Source of the DNA: Escherichia phage LF82-11
DNA length: 52,979 nucleotides
Sequence record: PV660454
Strand: one strand, 5' to 3'
Both the position numbers and the translations under genes were made by a program. Positions 1 to 51,029 of this stretch are shown here, piece by piece (the first letter of the stretch is position 1; every line of letters starts with the position of its first letter). The notes beneath the pieces are model-generated. The model was not told where the DNA came from and did not search any database. It saw only the letters and a program-made list of their open reading frames with translations.

Positions 1-555
1 ATGTCACATGAAGAAGATAACGAATGGAAAAGCACGAGCGGCGCAGCCAATGAAGCGATCAAGAAAGGGAACTTTAAAGCACTGTATAACAAGAAGTATG
101 GCGACTTGTTTACGGTTTCAAAAAACCATGCTTTCACGCCTGAGCAGCTTTTTGATATGGCTGTTAAATACTTCACCTGGGCGGAAGAGAACGCGCTTAA
201 AGCAGCGGAAACGGCAAGCTTTCAGGGCATTGTGACTGAGAACCTCGTGCATAAGGTGCGCGTATTCACCCTTAACGGACTGTGCCTATTTTGCGGAATC
301 ACAGCCAACGCGATCCACAACTGGCGCAAGCAACCCGGATTTGGTGACGTGGTGGAGTTTATCGACAACGTGATCTATGAGCAGAAATTCCAGCTTGCGG
401 CTAACGGCATCATCAACGCCAGCTTTATTGGCAAGGAGATCGGCATTGATAAAGCGCCGGAAATTAACGTTGCAGCGACGGCGGCGGCTTCTGTTTCAGC
501 GCCAACCACTGAGGAAGTTAAAGACGCGGTGCGTGATATCCTGGGGGAATTATGA
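1..555 (+). CDS. putative terminase small subunit (start may lie upstream of window)
   Basis: 184-aa ORF immediately upstream of and overlapping (ATGA) the large terminase; position-based call. Confidence 0.4.
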   Translation: MSHEEDNEWKSTSGAANEAIKKGNFKALYNKKYGDLFTVSKNHAFTPEQLFDMAVKYFTWAEENALKAAETASFQGIVTENLVHKVRVFTLNGLCLFCGITANAIHNWRKQPGFGDVVEFIDNVIYEQKFQLAANGIINASFIGKEIGIDKAPEINVAATAAASVSAPTTEEVKDAVRDILGEL

Positions 556-9840: not shown

Positions 9841-10158
9841 ATGTCATTCAAAGTTAAACTGTCCGAGCGCCTCCCTGACTTCCCGCTTGATGTGAAATTC
9901 AACCTTCCGAACGGCACCGAGGCCGAAATTAAATTCACCGTCAAATCACTGAAGGCAAGCGAAGTTCAGGAGCTTTACACCAAGGCTGGCGAGGGCACTG
10001 GCGCTGAGTTCATTACCGCGCTGGCTACCGGGTGGAACCTGGAGGATGAATTTAACGAAGCCAACCAGAACGAGCTGGTAGACAGCTACCCGGCTGTAGT
10101 TCTTGCGCTGGTTTCCGCATACATGGAAGCGCTAGCGGGGTATCGAGCAAAAAACTAA
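9841..10158 (+). CDS. tail assembly chaperone (lambda gpG analogue)
   Basis: 105 aa directly upstream of tape measure; ends 3 nt after a slippery heptamer. Confidence 0.6.
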   Translation: MSFKVKLSERLPDFPLDVKFNLPNGTEAEIKFTVKSLKASEVQELYTKAGEGTGAEFITALATGWNLEDEFNEANQNELVDSYPAVVLALVSAYMEALAGYRAKN

Positions 10159-19717: not shown

Positions 19718-20368
19718 TTAGTTCCACCCAAGGAATCGAGCCATTGGAATCTTTAGGTTTCCGCGACCGTTGAAAATATCATTAAACCCTCGCTGATTTC
19801 GTCTGATCCATGTAGTCTGCAACTCCGAGCCAGTCCAGCGCATGAGGTTGCCAGAGTAACCAGAGGCAACGCCATCCGTTGACATTTCACCCATGCAGGA
19901 CTCCCACAGAAAGAATGGGTTGTAACCAGGTGATACGCTGGCAACGTTACCCTCAAGAGGCCAATTCCCGGCAACCTCAAGGAAGCCAGTTACACGAGGC
20001 ATTGAGGCAGCGCCCAAAGCAGACCAGATCAGTTGCCCGGAACCGTCGAACACGTCAAGCACGCCAGATGGAAAGTTTGCGTTTCTGGTTGTCCTGATCA
20101 CGCGGATTGAGTTTGGTAGGAACATATCAGATCCCGGAAACCCCCACGCGCCGTTAGAAAGAAATTGCACCCAATGCAAATATCCGTCTTGCTTCCTCGT
20201 GTTTTGGTTTAGGTAAGCCAGTGAGCTTATGTTGCCAAAAGGTGTGTTTAGGTTGTAGTCACCAGTATTTAAATATGACGGGTTGAAAGATGAGTGGTAG
20301 ATCGTGTGTTTCTGATCTGAGTTAATCATCATCGCCCCGGCGTTATTGTATACCTCAAAACCAGGCAT
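19718..20368 (-). CDS. Asn/Gly/Ser/aromatic-rich protein, paralogue of downstream gene
   Basis: 216 aa starting MPGFEVYNNAG; internal DGSGQLI; good RBS. Confidence 0.4.
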   Translation of the reverse strand: MPGFEVYNNAGAMMINSDQKHTIYHSSFNPSYLNTGDYNLNTPFGNISSLAYLNQNTRKQDGYLHWVQFLSNGAWGFPGSDMFLPNSIRVIRTTRNANFPSGVLDVFDGSGQLIWSALGAASMPRVTGFLEVAGNWPLEGNVASVSPGYNPFFLWESCMGEMSTDGVASGYSGNLMRWTGSELQTTWIRRNQRGFNDIFNGRGNLKIPMARFLGWN

Positions 20369-20377
20369 ATTGCCCCC

Positions 20378-20677
20378 TCAGTTAAATTTGTAAATTTCGA
20401 TATCCATCGTCACATCGTTAAACGGGTTGCTTGTTGGTAGGTAGATAACATCAACAGCATTCTCACGCGTTACGCAAGCGTAAGCACTCCCTATGTAGAT
20501 GTTTGCGTATTTGATGCAAGCAAACGAGTTGTAACCGTTTATTCCGACAACAGCAAAAGACACGATCGAAGTCGAGCGCGGGAACACGATTTGCTGACGA
20601 TGCACAAAGCGAGTGCTGAAATCTCCGAGATCCACAATCAGATTTCCCGACCCATCCCATGCTTGTAAACCAGGCAT
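20378..20677 (-). CDS. hypothetical protein, paralogous N-terminus
   Basis: 99 aa starting MPGLQAWDGSGNLI; near-identical RBS/start context to 19718..20368. Confidence 0.4.
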   Translation of the reverse strand: MPGLQAWDGSGNLIVDLGDFSTRFVHRQQIVFPRSTSIVSFAVVGINGYNSFACIKYANIYIGSAYACVTRENAVDVIYLPTSNPFNDVTMDIEIYKFN

Positions 20678-20795
20678 AATGCCACCTCGTGAGTTTGTTT
20701 GATTGAGTGCAAATAATACACCAGCGAGCAGACAAAATCAAAGTCAACATGTCGTTCCTGTAGTTAGCTGTTAAGAAAATCACTTTCCGGCGATT

Positions 20796-21031
20796 TCGAT
20801 ACACGCAACTACAGAAAACTACAGCGTTATACATTGCGTAAGTATATATATAATAAGGGTTTATCTAATATTATTATTATTACTATATTCATGTTGTAGT
20901 TAGTGTAACGGTATCGTTTGGTGATTCCCGGATATCTTTTCGAATAGTTGAGTTAATTGTGTGGTTATTAGGATGCCGATACCTGGCTACCCCTCCGCAA
21001 TCCGCGTTAAAATCGATACACGCAACTACAG
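20796..21031. repeat. iteron-like repeats in AT-rich intergenic region
   Basis: 19-bp direct repeat TCGATACACGCAACTACAG at about 20796 and 21013; AACTACAG/CTGTAGTT copies in both orientations. Confidence 0.5.
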
Positions 21032-21116
21032 TCAGCATTCATGCGGGTTTGAAGGGTGTTTTTTGTAACGAATGCCATTATCGACAAAAAATAACACTAA
21101 CGACACGTTATATATT

Positions 21117-21144
21117 TGACAAAGCGAATGAACCGCGTATACTC
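21117..21144 (+). promoter_or_regulatory. sigma70-like promoter for recombination genes
   Basis: TTGACA, 16-bp spacer, TATACT. Confidence 0.45.
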
Positions 21145-21176
21145 AGCCACATCAACCACAACTGAGGAATAAAGTG

Positions 21177-22232
21177 ATGAATCCAACAAGACCTGAATCA
21201 GATTTTTTCTGGTTCACCAGCGATGAAATGCCGAACGATTTTTACCACGACAAAGAGGCATGGACTTTTGATTTCGTATCAGGCTCCAGCCTTTGCGACA
21301 TTCACCAATCGTCACCCGCTTCATGGTTCTTCGCCAAAAACGAGATCACAAAGGCGCTTGAGTTTGGTACTCAGTCACACACCAACTTTGAATCGAAGTC
21401 GCTGTTTGATGCAACGTATCGACGCGCACCAGCCCCGGAAGACTTCGAAAACTTGATTACGTCTCAGGCAGCGCTGGCTACGAAGTTGAAATCATTCGGC
21501 CTGACTGGTACAAGCGGGAAGCAATATCCAGAGCTGATCAAAATGATGGTTGATTGCGGTGAAGATCTTAACGTGTTGTGGCTTATTGATATGATCGCAC
21601 AGTGCCAGGCTTGGGCTGATGGCGTTGAGTTGGTCAAGGCTGAGGATTACGACAAGTGCAAGATGATGCGCGCCGTTCTGGAATCAGTGCCGGAATACGC
21701 AATGATGATGGAAAGCCCAACGGCAATGCACGAGCTTTCATTGTTCGGAAAGATCAGCGGCGTTGACGTAAAAGTCAGACTTGACTACGTTGACACGGTT
21801 ACTGATCCAAACCTCATTCGTCATTTTGGGTACGATCCAGAGCTACACCCTGAAATCATTGTGATTATGGACTACAAAACGACGAGCAGCGCCAACCCGG
21901 CAGATTTTGACCGAAAGGCATTCGATCTTGGGTATTATCTGAAGATGGCATTGCAGCGTGATTTATTCGTCAAAGTGTACGATGAGAAGCGCCCCGTTTG
22001 CTTGGTTCTGCTTACACAGGAAAAGAAAGAGCCATTCTTGCCACTTGGAAGGCCAATGACGCGCGAGCAGCTTCTTTTAGGCCGCAAGCAGTATATGGGT
22101 GTCATTCACACTTACTCGATCTGCAAGGAATCAAACGTTTGGCCTGGCTATGCAAACGGCGCTCCTTTCGTTAGCCTTGAAACGCCTGACTACATCAAGC
22201 GCCAGCATAAGGATATTTTCGGCGGAGAGTAA
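21177..22232 (+). CDS. PD-(D/E)xK-type exonuclease (recombination)
   Basis: IVIMDYKTT D-x-K motif; ATG 21177 with GAGGAA RBS (track start 21174 is GTG). Confidence 0.5.
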   Translation: MNPTRPESDFFWFTSDEMPNDFYHDKEAWTFDFVSGSSLCDIHQSSPASWFFAKNEITKALEFGTQSHTNFESKSLFDATYRRAPAPEDFENLITSQAALATKLKSFGLTGTSGKQYPELIKMMVDCGEDLNVLWLIDMIAQCQAWADGVELVKAEDYDKCKMMRAVLESVPEYAMMMESPTAMHELSLFGKISGVDVKVRLDYVDTVTDPNLIRHFGYDPELHPEIIVIMDYKTTSSANPADFDRKAFDLGYYLKMALQRDLFVKVYDEKRPVCLVLLTQEKKEPFLPLGRPMTREQLLLGRKQYMGVIHTYSICKESNVWPGYANGAPFVSLETPDYIKRQHKDIFGGE

Positions 22233-25983: not shown

Positions 25984-26006
25984 TGTCAACACCTCTTGTT
26001 AGTAAA

Positions 26007-26021
26007 TAGCACGAATTGCTA
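26007..26021 (+). promoter_or_regulatory. orphan inverted-repeat box
   Basis: TAGCACGAATTGCTA between primase terminator and tail-fibre start; no -10 at the usual spacing. Confidence 0.4.
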
Positions 26022-26044
26022 AAACGCATTATATCAGGCATTCA

Positions 26045-27073: not shown

Positions 27074-27532
27074 TCATTGATTAGCTTTTCGTGCTTTCAG
27101 TGTTTTCCAGGATGGTTGCTCCGGCTTGGTTTCTAACTCTTCCTTTCTCACCACGCGCAGCATGTGACGCTTTTTGCATCGGACTGTTAGCGGCTTGCCG
27201 TTGCCGTCGAATGACAGATCAGGGCGGCACCACGACGCGCGGAAACCTCCGCCATTTCGTTTATATGCGTTGTGCGCCAGTTGCGCGCCTCGCGCTGAAA
27301 TCATGCCGCGTTGCCGCCACTCATAAACAACCTGAAGCGAAACGCGCAATTCTTTCGCCAGCTTTGCAGGTGAGCCGTAGAATTCAAGGATGGTATCTAA
27401 TCTAGCCTTAAGCCCGGCCTTTACTTCGTCTCGTAAAACATAGTAACCTACTGGACGTTTTCGGCGCTTAGCGTCACTTCCGCGCTTCGTTCCATTGTTC
27501 CCATTAAGCGTGCGTTTATCTACGGTTTCCAT
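27074..27532 (-). CDS. basic HTH-type DNA-binding protein
   Basis: LAKELRVSLQVVYEWRQRG resembles a Cro/YdaS-like helix-turn-helix; Arg/Lys-rich. Confidence 0.35.
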   Translation of the reverse strand: METVDKRTLNGNNGTKRGSDAKRRKRPVGYYVLRDEVKAGLKARLDTILEFYGSPAKLAKELRVSLQVVYEWRQRGMISARGAQLAHNAYKRNGGGFRASWCRPDLSFDGNGKPLTVRCKKRHMLRVVRKEELETKPEQPSWKTLKARKANQ

Positions 27533-30180: not shown

Positions 30181-30894
30181 ATGATTGACGAGAACGATAA
30201 AGACACAATGACGTTTGAAGAAATGGAGCACGGCTTGTATTCAACTCGCGCACTGGTTGCCGGGTGCCACTACCAGCCAGTGAAGCCGGAAACGTACTAT
30301 CGCGTTTCAGGGCATCGTTACGTTGGCAGCAAAACGCCTGACGTTGTGCGTGACTTGTGGGCAACCGATCGCGAATTGATTTCGTGGATGGAAGAGCGTT
30401 ACGGAAAGTATGATATCGACGCAGCGGCAAGCGCGAATAATGCCGTGTGCGAAAAGTTCTACGACGAGCAACGTAACTGCCTGAAAATCTGGTGGGGAAA
30501 GAATAAGCACATCTGGCTTAACCCTCCGTACTCACATCCTGATCCATTCGTGAAGAAGGCCATTGAGCAGATGGAGCATGACAACCAGATTGATATGCTT
30601 CTTCCTGGCGACAACTCAACGGCATGGTTTGCAGAGGCGCGCAAAAACGCTGCTGAGATCATCTGGATTGAGGCTGAGATCACAGAGATTGACCAGCAGG
30701 AATATTGCCGAACCGGGCGACTCGCTTTTATTTCCGGCCTAACCGGAAAGCCAGTTGACGGCAACAACAAAGGGAGTGTGATTTTCATCATGCGCAAACT
30801 GAAAGAGGGTGAGACGCAACAAACACACTATGTGAGCGTTTCTGAGATCTGCCCAGGCGTAAGCCGCAAGAAACCACGTAAACGGAGCGTTTAA
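30181..30894 (+). CDS. dam: DNA N6-adenine methyltransferase (phage Dam family)
   Basis: 237 aa with NPPY motif (LNPPYS), as in T1-type Dam. Confidence 0.7.
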   Translation: MIDENDKDTMTFEEMEHGLYSTRALVAGCHYQPVKPETYYRVSGHRYVGSKTPDVVRDLWATDRELISWMEERYGKYDIDAAASANNAVCEKFYDEQRNCLKIWWGKNKHIWLNPPYSHPDPFVKKAIEQMEHDNQIDMLLPGDNSTAWFAEARKNAAEIIWIEAEITEIDQQEYCRTGRLAFISGLTGKPVDGNNKGSVIFIMRKLKEGETQQTHYVSVSEICPGVSRKKPRKRSV

Positions 30895-31977: not shown

Positions 31978-33114
31978 ATGTCACTGAAGAAAATCACCGA
32001 CGAGCAGTTAAACGCCGAGCGAGAGTCGGGTAAAACTTACCGCCAGATCGCGGAAGAGTACGGAATGAACATACGCACCGTCGAGGCTCGCGGCGCACGC
32101 CTGGCTAAGAAAGGTTTCGGTCACGGTAACGGCGATGCATCGCGATTTGTTCCAGAAGGCTTCATGGTTAAGGGCACATCAACCATGCACCGCGCGAACG
32201 GAGAGGTTATCGTTAGCTGGACGAAAACCAATCAGGATCATGAGAAGTTAGCCGCCATGCTTGAGCACGCGATCGAGGCGTTTTGCGTTGAGCTTCCACG
32301 CGCAGCCGCTACACCTTCCAACGTTGGTGAGGTGATGGAGAACCAGCTCGCGCTTTATCCTGTATTCGATCTGCATATCGGTGCAATGGCTCATAAGCAT
32401 GAGTGCGGCGAGAACTACTCAACCGATATTGCCGAGAAGGTTTTGGGCGATTTCTTCAAGTACGCTGTGAACGTTGCGCCGAAGGCGAAGAAGGCGGTTG
32501 TGCTGGTTGGCGGTGACTACCTCCACTCTGACGGCCTGGACGCTGTAACACCCGCAAGCGGTCACGTTCTGGATCAGGACTCACGTTACGCTAAGCTGGT
32601 TCACGTTGCCATTCGCTCACTCCGTCGCGGCGTTGCGCTTCTGCTTGATAAGCATGAAGAGATTGAGATCCAGATTATCGAAGGCAACCACGATCAGGCG
32701 GGTATGATTTGGCTACGCGCTGCAATGGCGGCATACTTCGAAGATGAGCCGCGCGTCACGGTTGACACATCGCCTATGATCCTTCACCGTACCAAGTGGG
32801 GCAAAACGCTGTTAGGCTACACTCACGGTCACACGATGAAGAAAGCAGAAACCCGCCTCCAGGCGCTGGCTACTGACTTCCGTTCTGAGTTCGGCACGAG
32901 TGAATTCGTTTATACTCACTCAGGGCATTGGCATCACCAGACGCTTACAGAGCACACCTTAGGCATTGACGAGGTTCACGGTCAGTTAGGTGCCAAAGAT
33001 GCGTATGCGGCTCGCGGTGGATGGCGCTCATATCGCCAGGCGGCGGTAATTGTCTATGATAAAGAATTTGGCGAGGTAGGCCGATTCGTTTATCGTCCTC
33101 AGATGAGCAAATAG
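31978..33114 (+). CDS. calcineurin-like metallophosphoesterase with N-terminal HTH
   Basis: DLHIG, GGDYLHSDG and GNHD motifs; N-terminal GKTYRQIAEEYGMNIRTVEARGARL HTH-like segment. Confidence 0.55.
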   Translation: MSLKKITDEQLNAERESGKTYRQIAEEYGMNIRTVEARGARLAKKGFGHGNGDASRFVPEGFMVKGTSTMHRANGEVIVSWTKTNQDHEKLAAMLEHAIEAFCVELPRAAATPSNVGEVMENQLALYPVFDLHIGAMAHKHECGENYSTDIAEKVLGDFFKYAVNVAPKAKKAVVLVGGDYLHSDGLDAVTPASGHVLDQDSRYAKLVHVAIRSLRRGVALLLDKHEEIEIQIIEGNHDQAGMIWLRAAMAAYFEDEPRVTVDTSPMILHRTKWGKTLLGYTHGHTMKKAETRLQALATDFRSEFGTSEFVYTHSGHWHHQTLTEHTLGIDEVHGQLGAKDAYAARGGWRSYRQAAVIVYDKEFGEVGRFVYRPQMSK

Positions 33115-33154
33115 CACTTTTTGTTAAAAGCCGATCGCGTTGGTCGGCTATACT
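33112..33154 (+). promoter_or_regulatory. box-promoter module
   Basis: TAGCACTTTTTGTTA, 22 bp with GCCGA/TCGGC hairpin, TATACT. Confidence 0.5.
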
Positions 33155-35255: not shown

Positions 35256-36842
35256 TTACCCCAGCAAGCGTGGATTAACGTAAATCTTATCACCGATCAG
35301 GCAAGTGTAATTCTTCTCGTCAAGCATCGGCAGCAAGTGATCTTTGATTCGTGTCATTGTTCCGGCCTGGCCTTCGAATGGTCGAACCTTGCGCGCGGCC
35401 TCGTAAAGCGCCCGAAGACCAACAACGCCCTTCCCCTGCTTTCCGCTCTTGATCAGCAAGTCAATAAGCTTGTTCATTTCTGCTGAATCGCCAGCGTGCC
35501 CGGCAGACGACGCGGAAGAAAGATAGGTCTTGCTCAGCTCGTTAAACATGATCACGGCCTCCTGCATTGTGTCAAGCTCAATCTCTCGACTCTTCGGCGC
35601 ATTGCTTCCGTTTGGTGAGAACCAGTTACGGATCACATGCAGAACCGACGCGATACGAATCGCCTGTTTATCGAACTTGCCCAGCGCACCGCGTAACATG
35701 GTGTGCGAGTATTTCCCGCCGTCTGCCAAGTGTGGCTCCATCGCCTGGCGTGCGTTGTTAAGGTACTTCATCGCGCTCTTGCTCACCGTGAGCTTAACGT
35801 CAACCTCACTCATGATGGCGTGTATCAGCTTGAAGTAATCAGCTTTCAGGCCGCCGTCAATAGGCTCGTAAGTTGACTCGCCATTGTCATTCACGAAAAC
35901 ACGCTCACCAAGGAATGACTTCTCACGAACCAGCAAGAAACGCTCAGAAACACCGATACCGCGCGCACCTGCATTCATGATCGCGTTGATTGTCTCGTCC
36001 TGCGCGATAACCGAAATACAACCCATAGCCACGAATGACATGTTGTTATCAGCGTTCGCACGAGCGATAGACACGTTCCCTGCATCCCATGCTTTCAGCA
36101 CAAGCTCGCTGTTTGTCTTCTTCGAACCGTCACCATACGTCATGCCCAACAGGCTGTTAACGGATGTCGCTTCGTCCGAGATCACAGCGAAGTTGCCTTG
36201 ACGGTTGTTAATGCGTGCCAAGCCTTCAGGCGTGGTATCTGAAACAGGGAAAACGATATCGCAAAGGCGCTCAAGCTTCTCTTCAAGATCCTCTTTCTCC
36301 TCAAACAGCGAGGCCATTTCAGATGGCGCTTTCTCCTGTTTCATTTCCTTCGCCAGCGCAGACAGTTTGGCGAGAATCTTTTTACGCTCACGCTTACGAG
36401 CCTCGTTGAGTCGCTCAGTCTCCGCGATCATTGGCGCGATGGATAGCGAGTTGATTGCGGATTTCCCCGTTGATGGTGGCTGACTGGTTACAACGTAGAG
36501 CGCAGTTGGTTGTTGCGTTCCGTGATAGTCAACCGTGAACCTACCCAGCATGGCGGCAGACACGCAACCTACAAAGTGCATATAGGCTGAAGACTCAGGG
36601 AATTGAACCGATCTCGCGGCGTTGCGTGAGAGCTTGCCGACCACATCACTATCGTTGCCCAGGGAAATAACAGGATATTTATCATTACCTGAATCAATCT
36701 CTACCGGAGCCTTCCAGAAGGATTGGGATTGACGATATCCATTCGCATTTATGGCAACGCGGAGCGGCGGCAACCCTTCGGCCTTTGCAACCTCGATCAC
36801 TTGTTCCGGCGAAAGTTTATCATCATTGAAAATATCGAACAT
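35256..36842 (-). CDS. P-loop NTPase, putative replication ATPase/helicase
   Basis: Walker A-like PPSTGKS and Walker B-like FAVISDE; RBS AAGGAG. Confidence 0.45.
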   Translation of the reverse strand: MFDIFNDDKLSPEQVIEVAKAEGLPPLRVAINANGYRQSQSFWKAPVEIDSGNDKYPVISLGNDSDVVGKLSRNAARSVQFPESSAYMHFVGCVSAAMLGRFTVDYHGTQQPTALYVVTSQPPSTGKSAINSLSIAPMIAETERLNEARKRERKKILAKLSALAKEMKQEKAPSEMASLFEEKEDLEEKLERLCDIVFPVSDTTPEGLARINNRQGNFAVISDEATSVNSLLGMTYGDGSKKTNSELVLKAWDAGNVSIARANADNNMSFVAMGCISVIAQDETINAIMNAGARGIGVSERFLLVREKSFLGERVFVNDNGESTYEPIDGGLKADYFKLIHAIMSEVDVKLTVSKSAMKYLNNARQAMEPHLADGGKYSHTMLRGALGKFDKQAIRIASVLHVIRNWFSPNGSNAPKSREIELDTMQEAVIMFNELSKTYLSSASSAGHAGDSAEMNKLIDLLIKSGKQGKGVVGLRALYEAARKVRPFEGQAGTMTRIKDHLLPMLDEKNYTCLIGDKIYVNPRLLG

Positions 36843-41629: not shown

Positions 41630-41672
41630 ACTATAGCCGAAACATCCTGAGTGGTTTTAGCAAAAAGTGCTA
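41630..41672 (-). promoter_or_regulatory. box-promoter module (minus), leftward early promoter
   Basis: TAGCACTTTTTGCTA on minus strand, 22 bp, TATAGT. Confidence 0.5.
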
Positions 41673-41690
41673 TTGATTCGATTTATCCAA

Positions 41691-41748
41691 TTATTCCATT
41701 ATTCCAACTATTCTGGAATATTCCTGAATAACCGAATATCTGGAATAG
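41691..41748. repeat. GGAATA/TATTCC iteron cluster including 10-bp palindrome GGAATATTCC
   Basis: TTATTCCA x2 direct, GGAATATTCC palindrome, further GGAATA copies. Confidence 0.55.
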
Positions 41749-41793: not shown

Positions 41794-41818
41794 GATGTGA
41801 TGTGATGTGATGTGAATG
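41794..41818. repeat. tandem pentamer repeat (GATGT)x4 plus one imperfect copy
   Basis: four perfect tandem GATGT then GAATG. Confidence 0.6.
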
Positions 41819-41831
41819 AGGGTGAGGAGGC

Positions 41832-41845
41832 GATCAGATCTGATC
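41832..41845. promoter_or_regulatory. 14-bp perfect palindrome GATCAGATCTGATC with three GATC sites
   Basis: perfect palindrome, flanked by GGTGAGG/CCTCACC inverted repeat. Confidence 0.6.
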
Positions 41846-41954
41846 CCGAAACTTTTTCCCTCACCGCACGATTTGCTAATGAATTGTCGTGCCTGTAGTT
41901 GTATGTTGTGTTTTACGTTTTCCGTGGAAATCGGTACGCGCTACTACGCGGAAT

Positions 41955-42060
41955 AACAATGTTATGCTTTATATATAGATATATAAGTATATATAAAATA
42001 AAGGTTTTTTATTATATATATTATCTAATTTCATAACACTTTATAACGTGTTGTGTTTGT
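41955..42060. other. AT-rich tract (possible DNA unwinding element)
   Basis: about 100 bp of TATATA-rich sequence in the divergent intergenic region. Confidence 0.4.
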
Positions 42061-42247
42061 TCCGCCGGACGCGGAGTGATTGATATGTTTCGCGGCCTAT
42101 TTATGCCTATATTGTGAAATATGGGTAGGGGGATATATACCCCTCCGAAATCCGCAACAAACGCTTAATACGCACTACAACCCAGCAGGAATGCACCATG
42201 TAGAGGAGATTTTGTTGATAATGGCAATAATCGACACAAATTAATCT

Positions 42248-50560: not shown

Positions 50561-50989
50561 ATGAAATTACGTTGCACATTCCTTGAGCCAGCTTTCGCAA
50601 AAGCTCTGGCTGAGTTCTACACCATCGGCAAAACTTACGCCGCATCCATCAAGCCGGGATCAAAGGTTGGCGCTGTGCTGGTGGAGTCAAACGAAGGCAA
50701 TGAAGGCGATCAGCTTGCAGCAGTTCCGAGCCGCTCAGGGTTCGAGGTTCAAATTAAGAACCAAATTCCGATCGCAAAGTTCGAGGTTGTTGGCAAGCGT
50801 GCGGTGAAGCTTGTTAAGACTGAGAAGCGCGTAACGCTGAAACTTGATGGCGTGGGGAAATCAGATAAGCGCCGATTCCGCCGTGTTTGCCGCCAGTATC
50901 GAAAGTTGAAATTCATCAACCCTGGATTCTATTATGATCTGGAATCCGATCGCCACATGGCTAAACTTGCGCGACATCACCGCCGATAG
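50561..50989 (+). CDS. paralogue-family protein (MKLRC), basic C-terminus
   Basis: MKLRCTF...FYTIGKTYAAS; Arg/Lys-rich C-terminal tail. Confidence 0.4.
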   Translation: MKLRCTFLEPAFAKALAEFYTIGKTYAASIKPGSKVGAVLVESNEGNEGDQLAAVPSRSGFEVQIKNQIPIAKFEVVGKRAVKLVKTEKRVTLKLDGVGKSDKRRFRRVCRQYRKLKFINPGFYYDLESDRHMAKLARHHRR

Positions 50990-51029
50990 CACTTTTTGCT
51001 AAAACTCGAAATCGGGGTTGCGATATAGT
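50987..51029 (+). promoter_or_regulatory. box-promoter module
   Basis: TAGCACTTTTTGCTA, 22 bp, TATAGT in loop of GGGGTT/AACCCC hairpin. Confidence 0.5.

What the first reader, a model, noticed from the sequence alone, without database searches (positions are those of the whole stretch)
20680..21173. Second AT-rich iteron region between tail-tip accessory genes and the recombination module
The 490-bp interval contains a 19-bp direct repeat TCGATACACGCAACTACAG at about 20796 and 21013, at least five copies of AACTACAG/CTGTAGTT in both orientations, a long AT-rich tract and a TTGACA-16-TATACT promoter driving exo-erf-ssb. CTGTAGTT also occurs once in the 41.6-42.3 kb control region at about 41893. 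This could be a second origin, a regulator-binding array or a recombination hotspot.
Basis: seen in the sequence. Interest (0 to 1): 0.45.

Follow-up and report, generated by a model that had tools for sequence, protein, structure and literature searches.

The report
Phased protein-site arrays around AT-rich core
The repeats are real: this 500-bp gap between genes in a T1-like coliphage is packed with short, helically phased binding-type sites around the genome's second most AT-rich stretch, and it has a sister copy 21 kb away. Together the two copies are good candidates for the still-unmapped replication origins or master control hubs of T1-like phages.

Summary
The window is Escherichia phage LF82-12/-40, a T1-like Drexlerviridae phage. 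The 19-mer sits at 20796 and 21013. AACTACAG has four exact copies in the region plus one 7/8 copy. There is an AT-rich tract and a TTGACA-16-TATACT promoter for exo.

The functional unit is not the 19-mer. It is an 8-10 bp site with an ACA core, repeated every 10 bp. Clusters alternate in orientation: (---)(++++)[AT core](--)...(++)(-)(+++), then the exo promoter.

Region A (20678-21176) is a paralogue of the core of the 41.9-42.2 kb control region. These two cores are the two most AT-rich stretches in the genome.

Drexlerviridae from T1, Rtp, Vilniusvirus, Tempevirinae and over 40 metagenomic loci keep a roughly 350-560 bp non-coding region here. Every lineage inspected shows the same layout, with its own site variant used in both regions (CTACA, TAACA, GAACA or TTACA).

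This marks arrays for a phage-encoded DNA-binding protein. Candidates are the Cro-like HTH protein next to the primase, or the winged-helix tail of the DUF3987 helicase. My best reading is an iteron-type origin module, one of two, interwoven with divergent promoters. Pure transcriptional control is a close rival. Nothing was shown biochemically.

The parts
20713..20741 (-). Candidate sigma-70 promoter for the leftward three-gene operon (TTGATT-17-TATTAT).
   Evidence: Consensus scan gives 9 of 12 matches. The block is partly conserved in Vilniusvirus relatives. It is a prediction only.
20748..20776 (-). Outer-left cluster of three phased sites (TGTCGTTC / CTGTAGTT / CTGTTAAG), with TGT at 20750, 20759 and 20769.
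   Evidence: Relatives carry an equivalent three-site cluster at the same place, for example TGTCG x3 in L108 and TGTTC/TGTTT x3 in most others.
20784..20797 (+). Degenerate copy of the conserved 'CCG box' (TTTCCGGCGATTTC) that precedes the inner-left array.
   Evidence: It aligns with TTTCCGTGGAAATC of region B and with CCGCAGAATCGC in relatives.
20796..20834 (+). Inner-left array of four sites with TACA at 20800, 20810, 20820 and 20830. It contains 19-mer copy 1 and the two tandem AACTACAG.
   Evidence: Four of the only five 10-bp-spaced TACA pairs in the genome are in region A. Relatives carry 2-5 (+) sites at the same position.
20839..20891 (.). AT-rich core (about 15% GC) with a conserved TATAAT at 20849-20854 and the motif TAAGTATATATATAATAAGGGTTTA.
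   Evidence: Second most AT-rich 60-bp stretch of the genome. The best-conserved block against L108, Vilniusvirus and region B.
20892..20911 (-). Inner-right array (TTGTAGTTAG, TGTAACGG), pointing back toward the AT core.
   Evidence: Conserved in L108. Relatives carry three (-) sites here.
20958..20969 (+). Conserved box TGTGTGGTTATT, function unknown.
   Evidence: Conserved in L108, Vilniusvirus and L051. It has 2 mismatches to a DnaA box, so it is not counted as one.
20988..21006 (+). Conserved 'CCG box' TACCCCTCCGCAATCCGCG.
   Evidence: Shared with region B (TACCCCTCCGAAATCCGC), L108, NBD2 and JLB. Amplified into phased AATCCTCCGCAA repeats in L107.
21013..21031 (+). 19-mer copy 2, which is two phased sites (TACA at 21017 and 21027).
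21061..21069 (-). Single (-) site TTTTGTAAC.
   Evidence: TTTTTGTA is conserved in L108. Corresponds to TTTTGTTATC in TGTT-type lineages.
21079..21108 (+). Promoter-proximal array of three weaker sites (ACA at 21084, 21094 and 21103), ending 8 nt before the -35 hexamer.
   Evidence: L108 has three perfect CTACA sites here, and L110 has four perfect 11-bp repeats.
21116..21143 (+). Sigma-70 promoter TTGACA-16-TATACT for exo-erf-ssb.
   Evidence: 11 of 12. Both hexamers and the 5' leader are conserved in L108, NBD2 and KLB19. Depositors of ETEP102 annotated the equivalent promoter.
41880..42210 (+). Paralogous module in the early control region ('region B'). It has the same order of blocks and the most AT-rich core in the genome.
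   Evidence: Alignment A1, AT-richness rank 1, site-matrix cluster rank 2, CTACA enriched 6.2-fold.
27074..27532 (-). Candidate trans-factor 1: a 152-aa protein with a Cro-like helix-turn-helix, encoded next to the primase gene.
35256..36842 (-). Candidate trans-factor 2: DUF3987 helicase with a C-terminal winged-helix domain (about residues 450-528).

Best explanation
Region A is a cis-acting assembly platform for a nucleoprotein complex. About 15 short sites (roughly 8-10 bp, ACA core, window consensus near AAcTACAG) are spaced one helical turn apart. They sit in clusters of alternating orientation.

Two clusters converge on a 50-bp AT-rich core. Two others face outward next to the divergent promoters. 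A phage-encoded sequence-specific protein is proposed to bind head-to-tail along each array.

The best candidate binder is the Cro-like HTH protein encoded beside the primase. The alternative is the winged-helix tail of the DUF3987 helicase.

I think the most likely function is origin-type. Binding on both sides would load or distort the easily melted AT core so that the phage primase and helicases can start replication with the host polymerase. The paralogous module at 41.9-42.2 kb would act as a second origin or as a cis enhancer, as crr does for phage P4. Transcription from the embedded promoters probably runs through, and may help open, the same DNA.

Shown here: the sites, their phasing, the AT core, the paralogy, the conservation of layout across the family, and the lineage-specific site variants shared by both modules.

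Inferred: protein binding, the identity of the binder, and origin activity.
For: - Repeats far exceed chance.
- Region A is the genome-wide maximum for 10-bp-phased ACA/TGT pairs: 6, against a mean of 0.28 and sd of 0.74. Region B has 3.
- TACA runs at 20800/10/20/30.
- The A and B cores are the two most AT-rich stretches of the genome.
- A and B align block by block. A matrix trained on A ranks B second in the genome, with 10 hits per 400 bp against a mean of 1.9.
- 46 Drexlerviridae loci, plus T1, Rtp, NBD2 and JohannLBurckhardt, keep a roughly 350-560 bp non-coding region upstream of exo. All 17 cluster representatives and the reference phages inspected have the same block order.
- The site core differs by lineage but is the same in A and B of each genome. 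CTACA is 6.6x/6.2x enriched in the window, TAACA 7.6x/9.9x in NBD2, and GAACA 5.0x/5.1x in JLB.
- Against L108 (62% identity), the conserved islands are the sites, the AT core, the boxes and the exo promoter.
- In L107 the whole module lies between primase and exo with no leftward operon, so it does not exist merely to drive a divergent gene.
- Sites cluster only at A and B, not at other promoters.
- The phage has a Zn-ribbon primase and a separate DUF3987 helicase with a winged-helix tail. It has no recognised initiator. Phage P4 alpha combines a primase, an SF3 helicase and a winged-helix origin-binding domain in one protein (PMC2777425).
- The origin of T1-like phages is unidentified (PMC11447400).
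Against: - No binding, initiation or transcription data exist for this region.
- Both modules lie exactly where early and middle promoters and their operators are expected. Arrays abut the -35 of the exo promoter, and a conserved TATAAT follows the four-site array. All of this fits plain transcriptional control equally well.
- There are no DnaA boxes, IHF cores or GATC clusters in region A.
- The sites are shorter than classical 17-22 bp iterons.
- No simple correspondence links the HTH recognition helix to the site type. L110 has an E71 helix but GAACAG sites, and L108 has a different helix but the same sites as the window.
- The helicase winged helix is a generic fold match. No specific similarity to the P4 origin-binding domain was found.
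Confidence: 0.42

Rival explanations
1. Pure transcriptional control hub. The arrays are operator or activator sites for the phage Cro-like regulator. This protein would switch the divergent promoters on or off during the early-to-middle transition. The promoters concerned are the exo promoter, the leftward promoter and promoters inside the AT core. The AT core is simply promoter and UP-element DNA, and region B is the equivalent hub for the early operons.
For: - The region lies between divergent operons.
- A near-consensus exo promoter has a three-site array ending 8 nt upstream of its -35. The candidate leftward promoter has a mirror-image array.
- A four-site array stands where a -35 would be, ahead of a TATAAT conserved in 12 of 17 lineages. 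This recalls PhoB-type class II promoters.
- The conserved candidate binder has a Cro fold with a hypervariable recognition helix.
- The depositors of ETEP102 predicted overlapping promoters on both strands in the AT core.
Against: - Distances between the arrays and the outer promoters are not conserved. L110 has about 20 extra bp, and JLB-type arrays sit about 35 bp from the leftward -35.
- The full symmetric module persists in L107, where there is no leftward operon.
- Sites are absent from all other promoters in the genome.
- Cro-type dimers normally read palindromes, not phased direct repeats.
Confidence: 0.35
2. Sites for a host response regulator of the OmpR/PhoB family, which the phage uses to tie expression to host physiology. 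Examples are RstA (TACA-N6-TACA), ArcA and PhoP.
For: The window's array reads TACA-N6-TACA-N6-TACA-N6-TACA. From my own knowledge, this matches the published RstA box and the 10-11 bp direct-repeat format of that family. The TGTTA and TGTTT variants in relatives resemble ArcA and PhoP boxes.
Against: Phages of the same host, E. coli K-12 types, use different cores: CTACA in the window, TAACA in NBD2, GAACA in JLB, and TTACA in T1 and Rtp. Both modules of each genome keep the same core. This pattern points to a co-evolving phage factor, not a fixed host protein.
Confidence: 0.05
3. A recombination or packaging-related element. Examples would be a hotspot for the adjacent Exo/Erf system, a module-exchange junction, or a pac-type site.
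For: - The region lies next to exo-erf-ssb.
- Mosaic breakpoints fall at its edges. JohannLBurckhardt-like sequence at 81.7% identity stops at 20718, and Vilniusvirus-like sequence starts at 21084.
- The T1 and NBD2 records start inside the sister region B.
Against: Erf and exonuclease act without sequence specificity (established knowledge). Phased oriented arrays around an AT core are not a known feature of recombination hotspots or pac sites. Mosaic junctions at non-coding module borders are common in phages.
Confidence: 0.06
4. Not a functional element: chance or neutral repeats, small unannotated genes, or a structured RNA.
For: NBD2's depositors annotated three small ORFs in the equivalent region. 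The window has ORFs of 49 and 68 codons there.
Against: - The repeats far exceed chance.
- The layout is conserved across subfamilies.
- Alignment to L108 has 1- and 2-nt indels inside those ORFs.
- Rfam finds nothing at E<=1.
- The RNA fold z-score is -0.06.
Confidence: 0.03

Closest known systems
Phage P4 ori plus crr, bound by the alpha protein (primase, SF3 helicase and winged-helix origin-binding domain)
   Same: Short iterons (about 8 bp) occur in both orientations around AT-rich DNA. A second, distant cis region carries the same iterons. The T1-like phage has a Zn-ribbon primase and a separate DUF3987 helicase ending in a winged helix. The P4 alpha domain order comes from PMC2777425. 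From memory, the P4 type I iteron is TGTTCACC, which resembles the TGTTCAC(G/A) sites of several T1-like lineages.
   Different: Primase and helicase are separate genes here. No sequence similarity or specific fold similarity to the P4 origin-binding domain was found. Site sequences vary by lineage. Both modules also sit at divergent promoters. Origin activity is untested.
Iteron origins of lambda and plasmids (O-some type) and SPP1 oriL/oriR
   Same: Repeated initiator sites lie next to an AT-rich unwinding region. SPP1 also has two origin copies, far apart, bound by one phage protein (own knowledge).
   Different: Classical iterons are 17-22 bp and usually tandem in one orientation. Here the sites are 8-10 bp, spaced at 10 bp, and sit in six clusters of alternating orientation. 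There are no DnaA or IHF sites.
Operator and activator arrays at divergent phage promoters (lambda OR/Cro; PhoB-type phased boxes replacing a -35)
   Same: The region lies between divergent operons. The candidate binder is a Cro-fold protein. Phased direct repeats sit immediately upstream of -10 and -35 elements.
   Different: There are about 15 sites spread over 360 bp, and a duplicated module elsewhere. The sites are direct repeats, not palindromes. Spacing to the promoters is variable between lineages.
The 21-nt intergenic repeats of T1-like phages (aaATAGCACnnnTTGnTAAAA; TLS paper PMC11447400)
   Same: Both are Drexlerviridae-wide non-coding repeats of unknown function. The window has 24 copies, including one in the left part of region B.
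   Different: The sequence and distribution differ. No copy lies in region A. Those repeats are single copies upstream of many genes, not phased arrays around an AT core.

Membership tests
Iteron-type replication origin | Several copies of one short sequence, helically phased, in a non-coding region | tested here: met
   About 15 ACA-core sites. TACA lies at 20800/10/20/30 and at 21017/27. Region A is the genome maximum for 10-bp-phased pairs.
Iteron-type replication origin | Adjacent AT-rich, easily unwound segment | tested here: met
   The stretch 20839-20898 has 15% GC and ranks second in the genome. Its paralogue ranks first at 8% GC.
Iteron-type replication origin | Element-encoded initiator that binds the iterons | not testable with these tools
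   Only candidates exist: the Cro-like HTH protein and the helicase winged-helix tail. No simple covariation between recognition helix and site type was found.
Iteron-type replication origin | Replication starts there, or the fragment confers replication | not testable with these tools
   This needs marker-frequency or nascent-strand mapping, or an ori-plasmid assay.
Iteron-type replication origin | Host-factor sites (DnaA boxes, IHF, GATC clusters), which are common but not universal | tested here: not met
   Region A has zero matches to TTWTNCACA, zero IHF cores and zero GATC.
P4-type ori/crr pair | A second cis region carrying the same short iterons | tested here: met
   Region B aligns with A and is the second densest site cluster in the genome. 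The same lineage-specific core occurs in A and B of five genomes.
P4-type ori/crr pair | Binder homologous to the P4 alpha origin-binding domain | tested here: inconclusive
Operator/activator array of a divergent promoter region | Lies between divergently transcribed operons, with sites next to or overlapping the promoters | tested here: met
   Arrays end 6-8 nt from the -35 hexamers of the exo promoter and the candidate leftward promoter.
Operator/activator array of a divergent promoter region | Fixed spacing between sites and promoter elements across relatives | tested here: not met
   The distance from array to -35 differs by 20-35 bp in L110 and in JLB-type loci.
Operator/activator array of a divergent promoter region | Cognate regulator encoded by the phage | tested here: inconclusive
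   A Cro-fold protein is present and conserved. Binding is untested.
T1/TLS 21-nt intergenic repeat | Match to ATAGCACnnnTTGnTAAAA | tested here: not met
   The window has 24 copies and none lies within 20678-21176.
Host OmpR/PhoB-type response-regulator boxes | Same core sequence in all phages of the same host | tested here: not met
   The core differs among E. coli phages: CTACA, TAACA, GAACA or TTACA.
Known RNA family (Rfam) | Covariance-model match | tested here: not met
   No match at E<=1 over 20300-21500. The fold z-score is -0.06.

The most novel reading that the evidence does not exclude
Regions A and B together form the replication-initiation system of T1-like phages, built from 8-10 bp iterons. 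The sequence of those iterons has diversified into lineage-specific 'specificity types' (CTACA, TAACA, GAACA, TTACA). The cognate phage protein has diversified in step; its HTH recognition helix is the most variable part of an otherwise conserved protein. This would give virulent phages replicon or regulon specificity groups comparable to the immunity groups of lambdoid phages. Such groups would limit cross-activation between co-infecting relatives.
Probability: 0.2. Interest if true: 0.7.

Novelty: new variant of a known kind. Interest (0 to 1): 0.5.

Why it matters
T1 is one of the original seven T phages, yet neither its replication origin nor its transcriptional programme has been mapped. 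A 2024 re-annotation of TLS states that no iterons were found and lists unexplained intergenic repeats among the open questions.

The duplicated, family-wide module described here gives two precise targets of about 330 bp each. It also gives two candidate binding proteins. Simple experiments can test them: footprinting, ori-plasmid amplification and marker-frequency analysis.

The module is also a practical landmark. It marks mosaic module borders, and annotation pipelines have placed doubtful small ORFs across it.

Tried and rejected
- **Rfam.** A scan of 20300-21500 at E<=1 found nothing.
- **RNA folding.** The region 20856-21115 folds with z = -0.06.
- **Tandem repeats.** Tandem Repeats Finder found none in region A, because the sites are too short and divergent.
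- **Host-factor sites.** Scans for DnaA box, IHF core and GATC cluster found none in region A.
- **Plasmids.** A distant blastn against plasmids gave no match.
- **Phage collection.** Apart from the four near-identical LF82 phages, megablast and blastn matched only partial stretches or the flanks of the region. Comparison therefore had to be by position and layout, not by alignment.
- **First IMG/VR scan.** A scan with the single exo protein gave only one locus. An alignment-based scan was needed.
- **Helix-to-site rule.** I tried the rule 'Glu before the conserved Trp of the recognition helix means TAC-type sites'. It held for the window, Rtp, L011, L108 and L109. It failed for L110 (GAACAG sites), and L107 is dominated by a different box. 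I dropped it.
- **Literature.** Searches for T1-family origin or transcript mapping found only the TLS paper.
- **MITE reading.** I considered a miniature inverted-repeat element with 8-bp terminal inverted repeats (20758/21024). I rejected it because the layout is position-conserved, with different sequences, across subfamilies.

Full report
**Identity and setting**

The window is identical to Escherichia phage LF82-12/-40 (PV660455, 52,979 bp). Its closest named relatives are Vilniusvirus, Tempevirinae and other T1-like Drexlerviridae.

The finding covers the whole 499-bp intergenic region 20678-21176. This region separates a leftward three-gene operon (20677 to 19311, PHROG families of unknown function) from the rightward exo-erf-ssb operon.

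**Check of the observation**

- The 19-mer TCGATACACGCAACTACAG occurs exactly twice, at 20796 and 21013. Shuffles give 0.01 matches.
- AACTACAG occurs six times in the genome against 0.97 expected. Four copies are in the region, one is at 41893 and one is at 10094. A fifth copy in the region (20894) has one mismatch.
- The AT-rich tract and the TTGACA-16-TATACT promoter at 21116-21143 are as described.

**Anatomy**

The informative unit is shorter than the 19-mer. TACA recurs at 20800, 20810, 20820 and 20830, and again at 21017 and 21027. These account for four of the only five 10-bp-spaced TACA pairs in 53 kb.

Counting ACA or TGT cores spaced exactly 10 bp apart, region A scores 6. The genome mean is 0.28 with sd 0.74, and region A is the genome maximum.

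The sites form six clusters of alternating orientation:

1. Three (-) sites at 20750-20776.
2. Four (+) sites at 20796-20834.
3. The AT core at 20839-20891.
4. Two (-) sites at 20892-20911.
5. Two (+) sites at 21013-21031, which form the second 19-mer.
6. One (-) site at 21061-21069.
7. Three weaker (+) sites at 21079-21108.
8. The exo promoter.

Each (+) inner array is preceded by a 'CCG box'. These are TTTCCGGCGATTTC on the left and TACCCCTCCGCAATCCGCG on the right. The 19-mer is therefore two adjacent sites, and the 217-bp repeat reflects an internal duplication of box plus array.

**A sister module**

Region A aligns block by block with 41880-42210, the core of the early control region. 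The shared blocks, in order, are:

- the left TGTCGTkCCTGTAGTT;
- the box plus array;
- TAAGTATATATAwAATAArGGTTT;
- TACCCCTCCGmAATCCGC;
- ACGCA(A)CTACA;
- CAGCA..ATGC.

The two cores are the two most AT-rich 60-bp stretches of the genome, at 8% and 15% GC. A position matrix built only from region A sites ranks region B as the second densest cluster, with 10 hits per 400 bp against a mean of 1.9.

**Comparative evidence**

Outside the four near-identical LF82 phages, blastn aligns only short stretches of the region and its flanks. Positional comparison is nevertheless striking.

Forty-six IMG/VR loci, plus T1, Rtp, NBD2, KLB19, HazelMika, JohannLBurckhardt and six further contigs, all keep a non-coding region of roughly 350-560 bp upstream of exo. 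The 17 cluster representatives and the reference phages I inspected have the same order of elements.

The site core is lineage-specific:

| Lineage | Site core |
|---|---|
| Window and L108 | CTACA / ATACA |
| Vilniusvirus | TAACA |
| Most Tempevirinae-like loci | GAACA / AAACA |
| L110 | Perfect 11-bp AAGAACAGG repeats |
| T1 and Rtp | TTACA / ATTAC / TTACG |
| L107 | Expansion of the CCTCCGCAA box |

Within each of five complete genomes, the same core is enriched in both A and B. CTACA is 6.6x and 6.2x enriched in the window, TAACA is 7.6x and 9.9x in NBD2, and GAACA is 5.0x and 5.1x in JohannLBurckhardt.

Against L108 the region is 62% identical. The conserved islands are the sites, the AT core, the boxes, a TGTGTGGnTATT motif and the exo promoter with its leader. 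The exact 19-mer is not conserved there.

This pattern has three features: a conserved layout, a conserved ACA core, and flanking bases that change together at two loci. That is what is expected of sites read by a co-evolving phage-encoded protein. It argues against a fixed host factor.

**Candidate binders**

*The 152-aa 'transcriptional regulator' (27074-27532).*

- It is always encoded next to the primase and divergent from an SF2 helicase.
- In 34 homologues, the exposed recognition-helix positions 66, 70, 71, 73 and 74 are the most variable columns, at 2.1-3.4 bits. The N-terminal part averages 0.67 bits.
- I could not derive a helix-to-site code. A tentative rule failed on L110.

*The DUF3987 helicase (35256-36842).*

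- This recalls phage P4 alpha, which has a primase, an SF3 helicase and a winged-helix origin-binding domain in one protein (PMC2777425).
- No specific similarity to the P4 domain was detectable.

**Function**

Arguments for an origin-type role:

- Convergent phased arrays sit on the two most meltable segments of the genome.
- Sites are restricted to A and B.
- The full module is retained in L107, where it lies between primase and exo with no leftward operon.
- The module is close to the replication and recombination genes.
- No recognised initiator or origin is known in this family.
- There are precedents for paired cis regions in P4 and SPP1 (own knowledge).

Arguments for plain transcriptional control:

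- Both modules lie at divergent operon junctions.
- Arrays abut the -35 of the near-consensus exo promoter, and mirror-image arrays abut a candidate leftward promoter.
- A TATAAT conserved in most lineages is preceded by the four-site array where a -35 would be.
- The candidate binder has a Cro fold.

One point weakens the control reading: spacing between arrays and the outer promoters is not conserved.

The two roles are not exclusive. In the T4 and T7 origins, a promoter is coupled to an AT-rich unwinding element (own knowledge). My estimates are 0.42 for the origin-type reading, 0.35 for pure control, and the remainder spread over the minor rivals.

**Negative results**

- No Rfam match.
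- No excess RNA structure.
- No tandem repeats by TRF.
- No DnaA, IHF or GATC features.
- No plasmid homologues.
- None of the 24 copies of the known T1-family 21-nt repeat lies in region A.
- The small ORFs in the region are not frame-conserved against L108.

**Verdict**

This is one of two paralogous, family-wide modules of phased protein-binding sites around an AT-rich core. I found no description of it in the literature I could search. It is a concrete candidate for the unmapped origin or control system of T1-like phages. All functional statements remain inference from sequence.

Noticed in passing
window, 24 sites, e.g. 26006-26024(+), 33111-33129(+), 41655-41673(-), 50986-51004(+): There are 24 copies (<=2 mismatches; 0.13 expected) of the T1-family 21-nt repeat ATAGCACnnnTTGnTAAAA. 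Most lie between genes and point the same way as the neighbouring genes. The TLS paper lists their function as an open question.
   Followed up: partly
window 41686-41745 and 41794-41815 (left part of region B): Tandem ATTATTCC/TCCAATTAT units and a GATGT x4.4 array lie beside three clustered GATC sites (41832-41845). Similar ATTATTCCA and GATGTGAT runs occur in region B of NBD2 and T1. The T1 and NBD2 records start inside this region, so it may relate to genome ends or packaging.
   Followed up: partly
window 20300-20718 versus 21084-21600: There is a mosaic junction. The left flank and its three genes are 82-90% like JohannLBurckhardt (Tempevirinae), while exo and most other genes are closest to Vilniusvirus. 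The breakpoints bracket the core of region A.
   Followed up: partly
L107 11429-11990 (Logan contig ERR11172890_609): This is a rearranged relative. The module lies directly between primase and exo, starts with a terminator hairpin, and is dominated by phased AATCCTCCGCAA boxes instead of ACA-core sites.
   Followed up: partly
proteins P0099-P0107 (e.g. phiEB49 gp73, ~175-180 aa); compare window 35256-36842: These short proteins seem to join the first ~40 residues of the DUF3987 helicase to its C-terminal winged-helix domain, with no helicase core. They may be a split or alternative form of the gene in Rtp-like phages.
   Followed up: no
L003 1414-1944 (NBD2_51 to NBD2_53); window ORFs 20889-21038(-) and 20959-21165(+): Small ORFs annotated or callable inside the module are probably spurious. 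The region is non-coding in KLB19, HazelMika and the LF82 records, and indels against L108 break the reading frames.
   Followed up: partly
whole window: GATC is over-represented genome-wide, with about 349 sites or 6.6 per kb against 3.9 expected for a random tetramer. It is absent from the 499 bp of region A. The phage encodes a Dam-like methylase (30181-30894).
   Followed up: no
window 35256-36842 versus Rtp (L106 42193-43776): The DUF3987 helicase is 88% identical to that of Rtp, while the primase (43%) and exo (46%) are far more distant. This points to exchange of the helicase gene between subfamilies.
   Followed up: no
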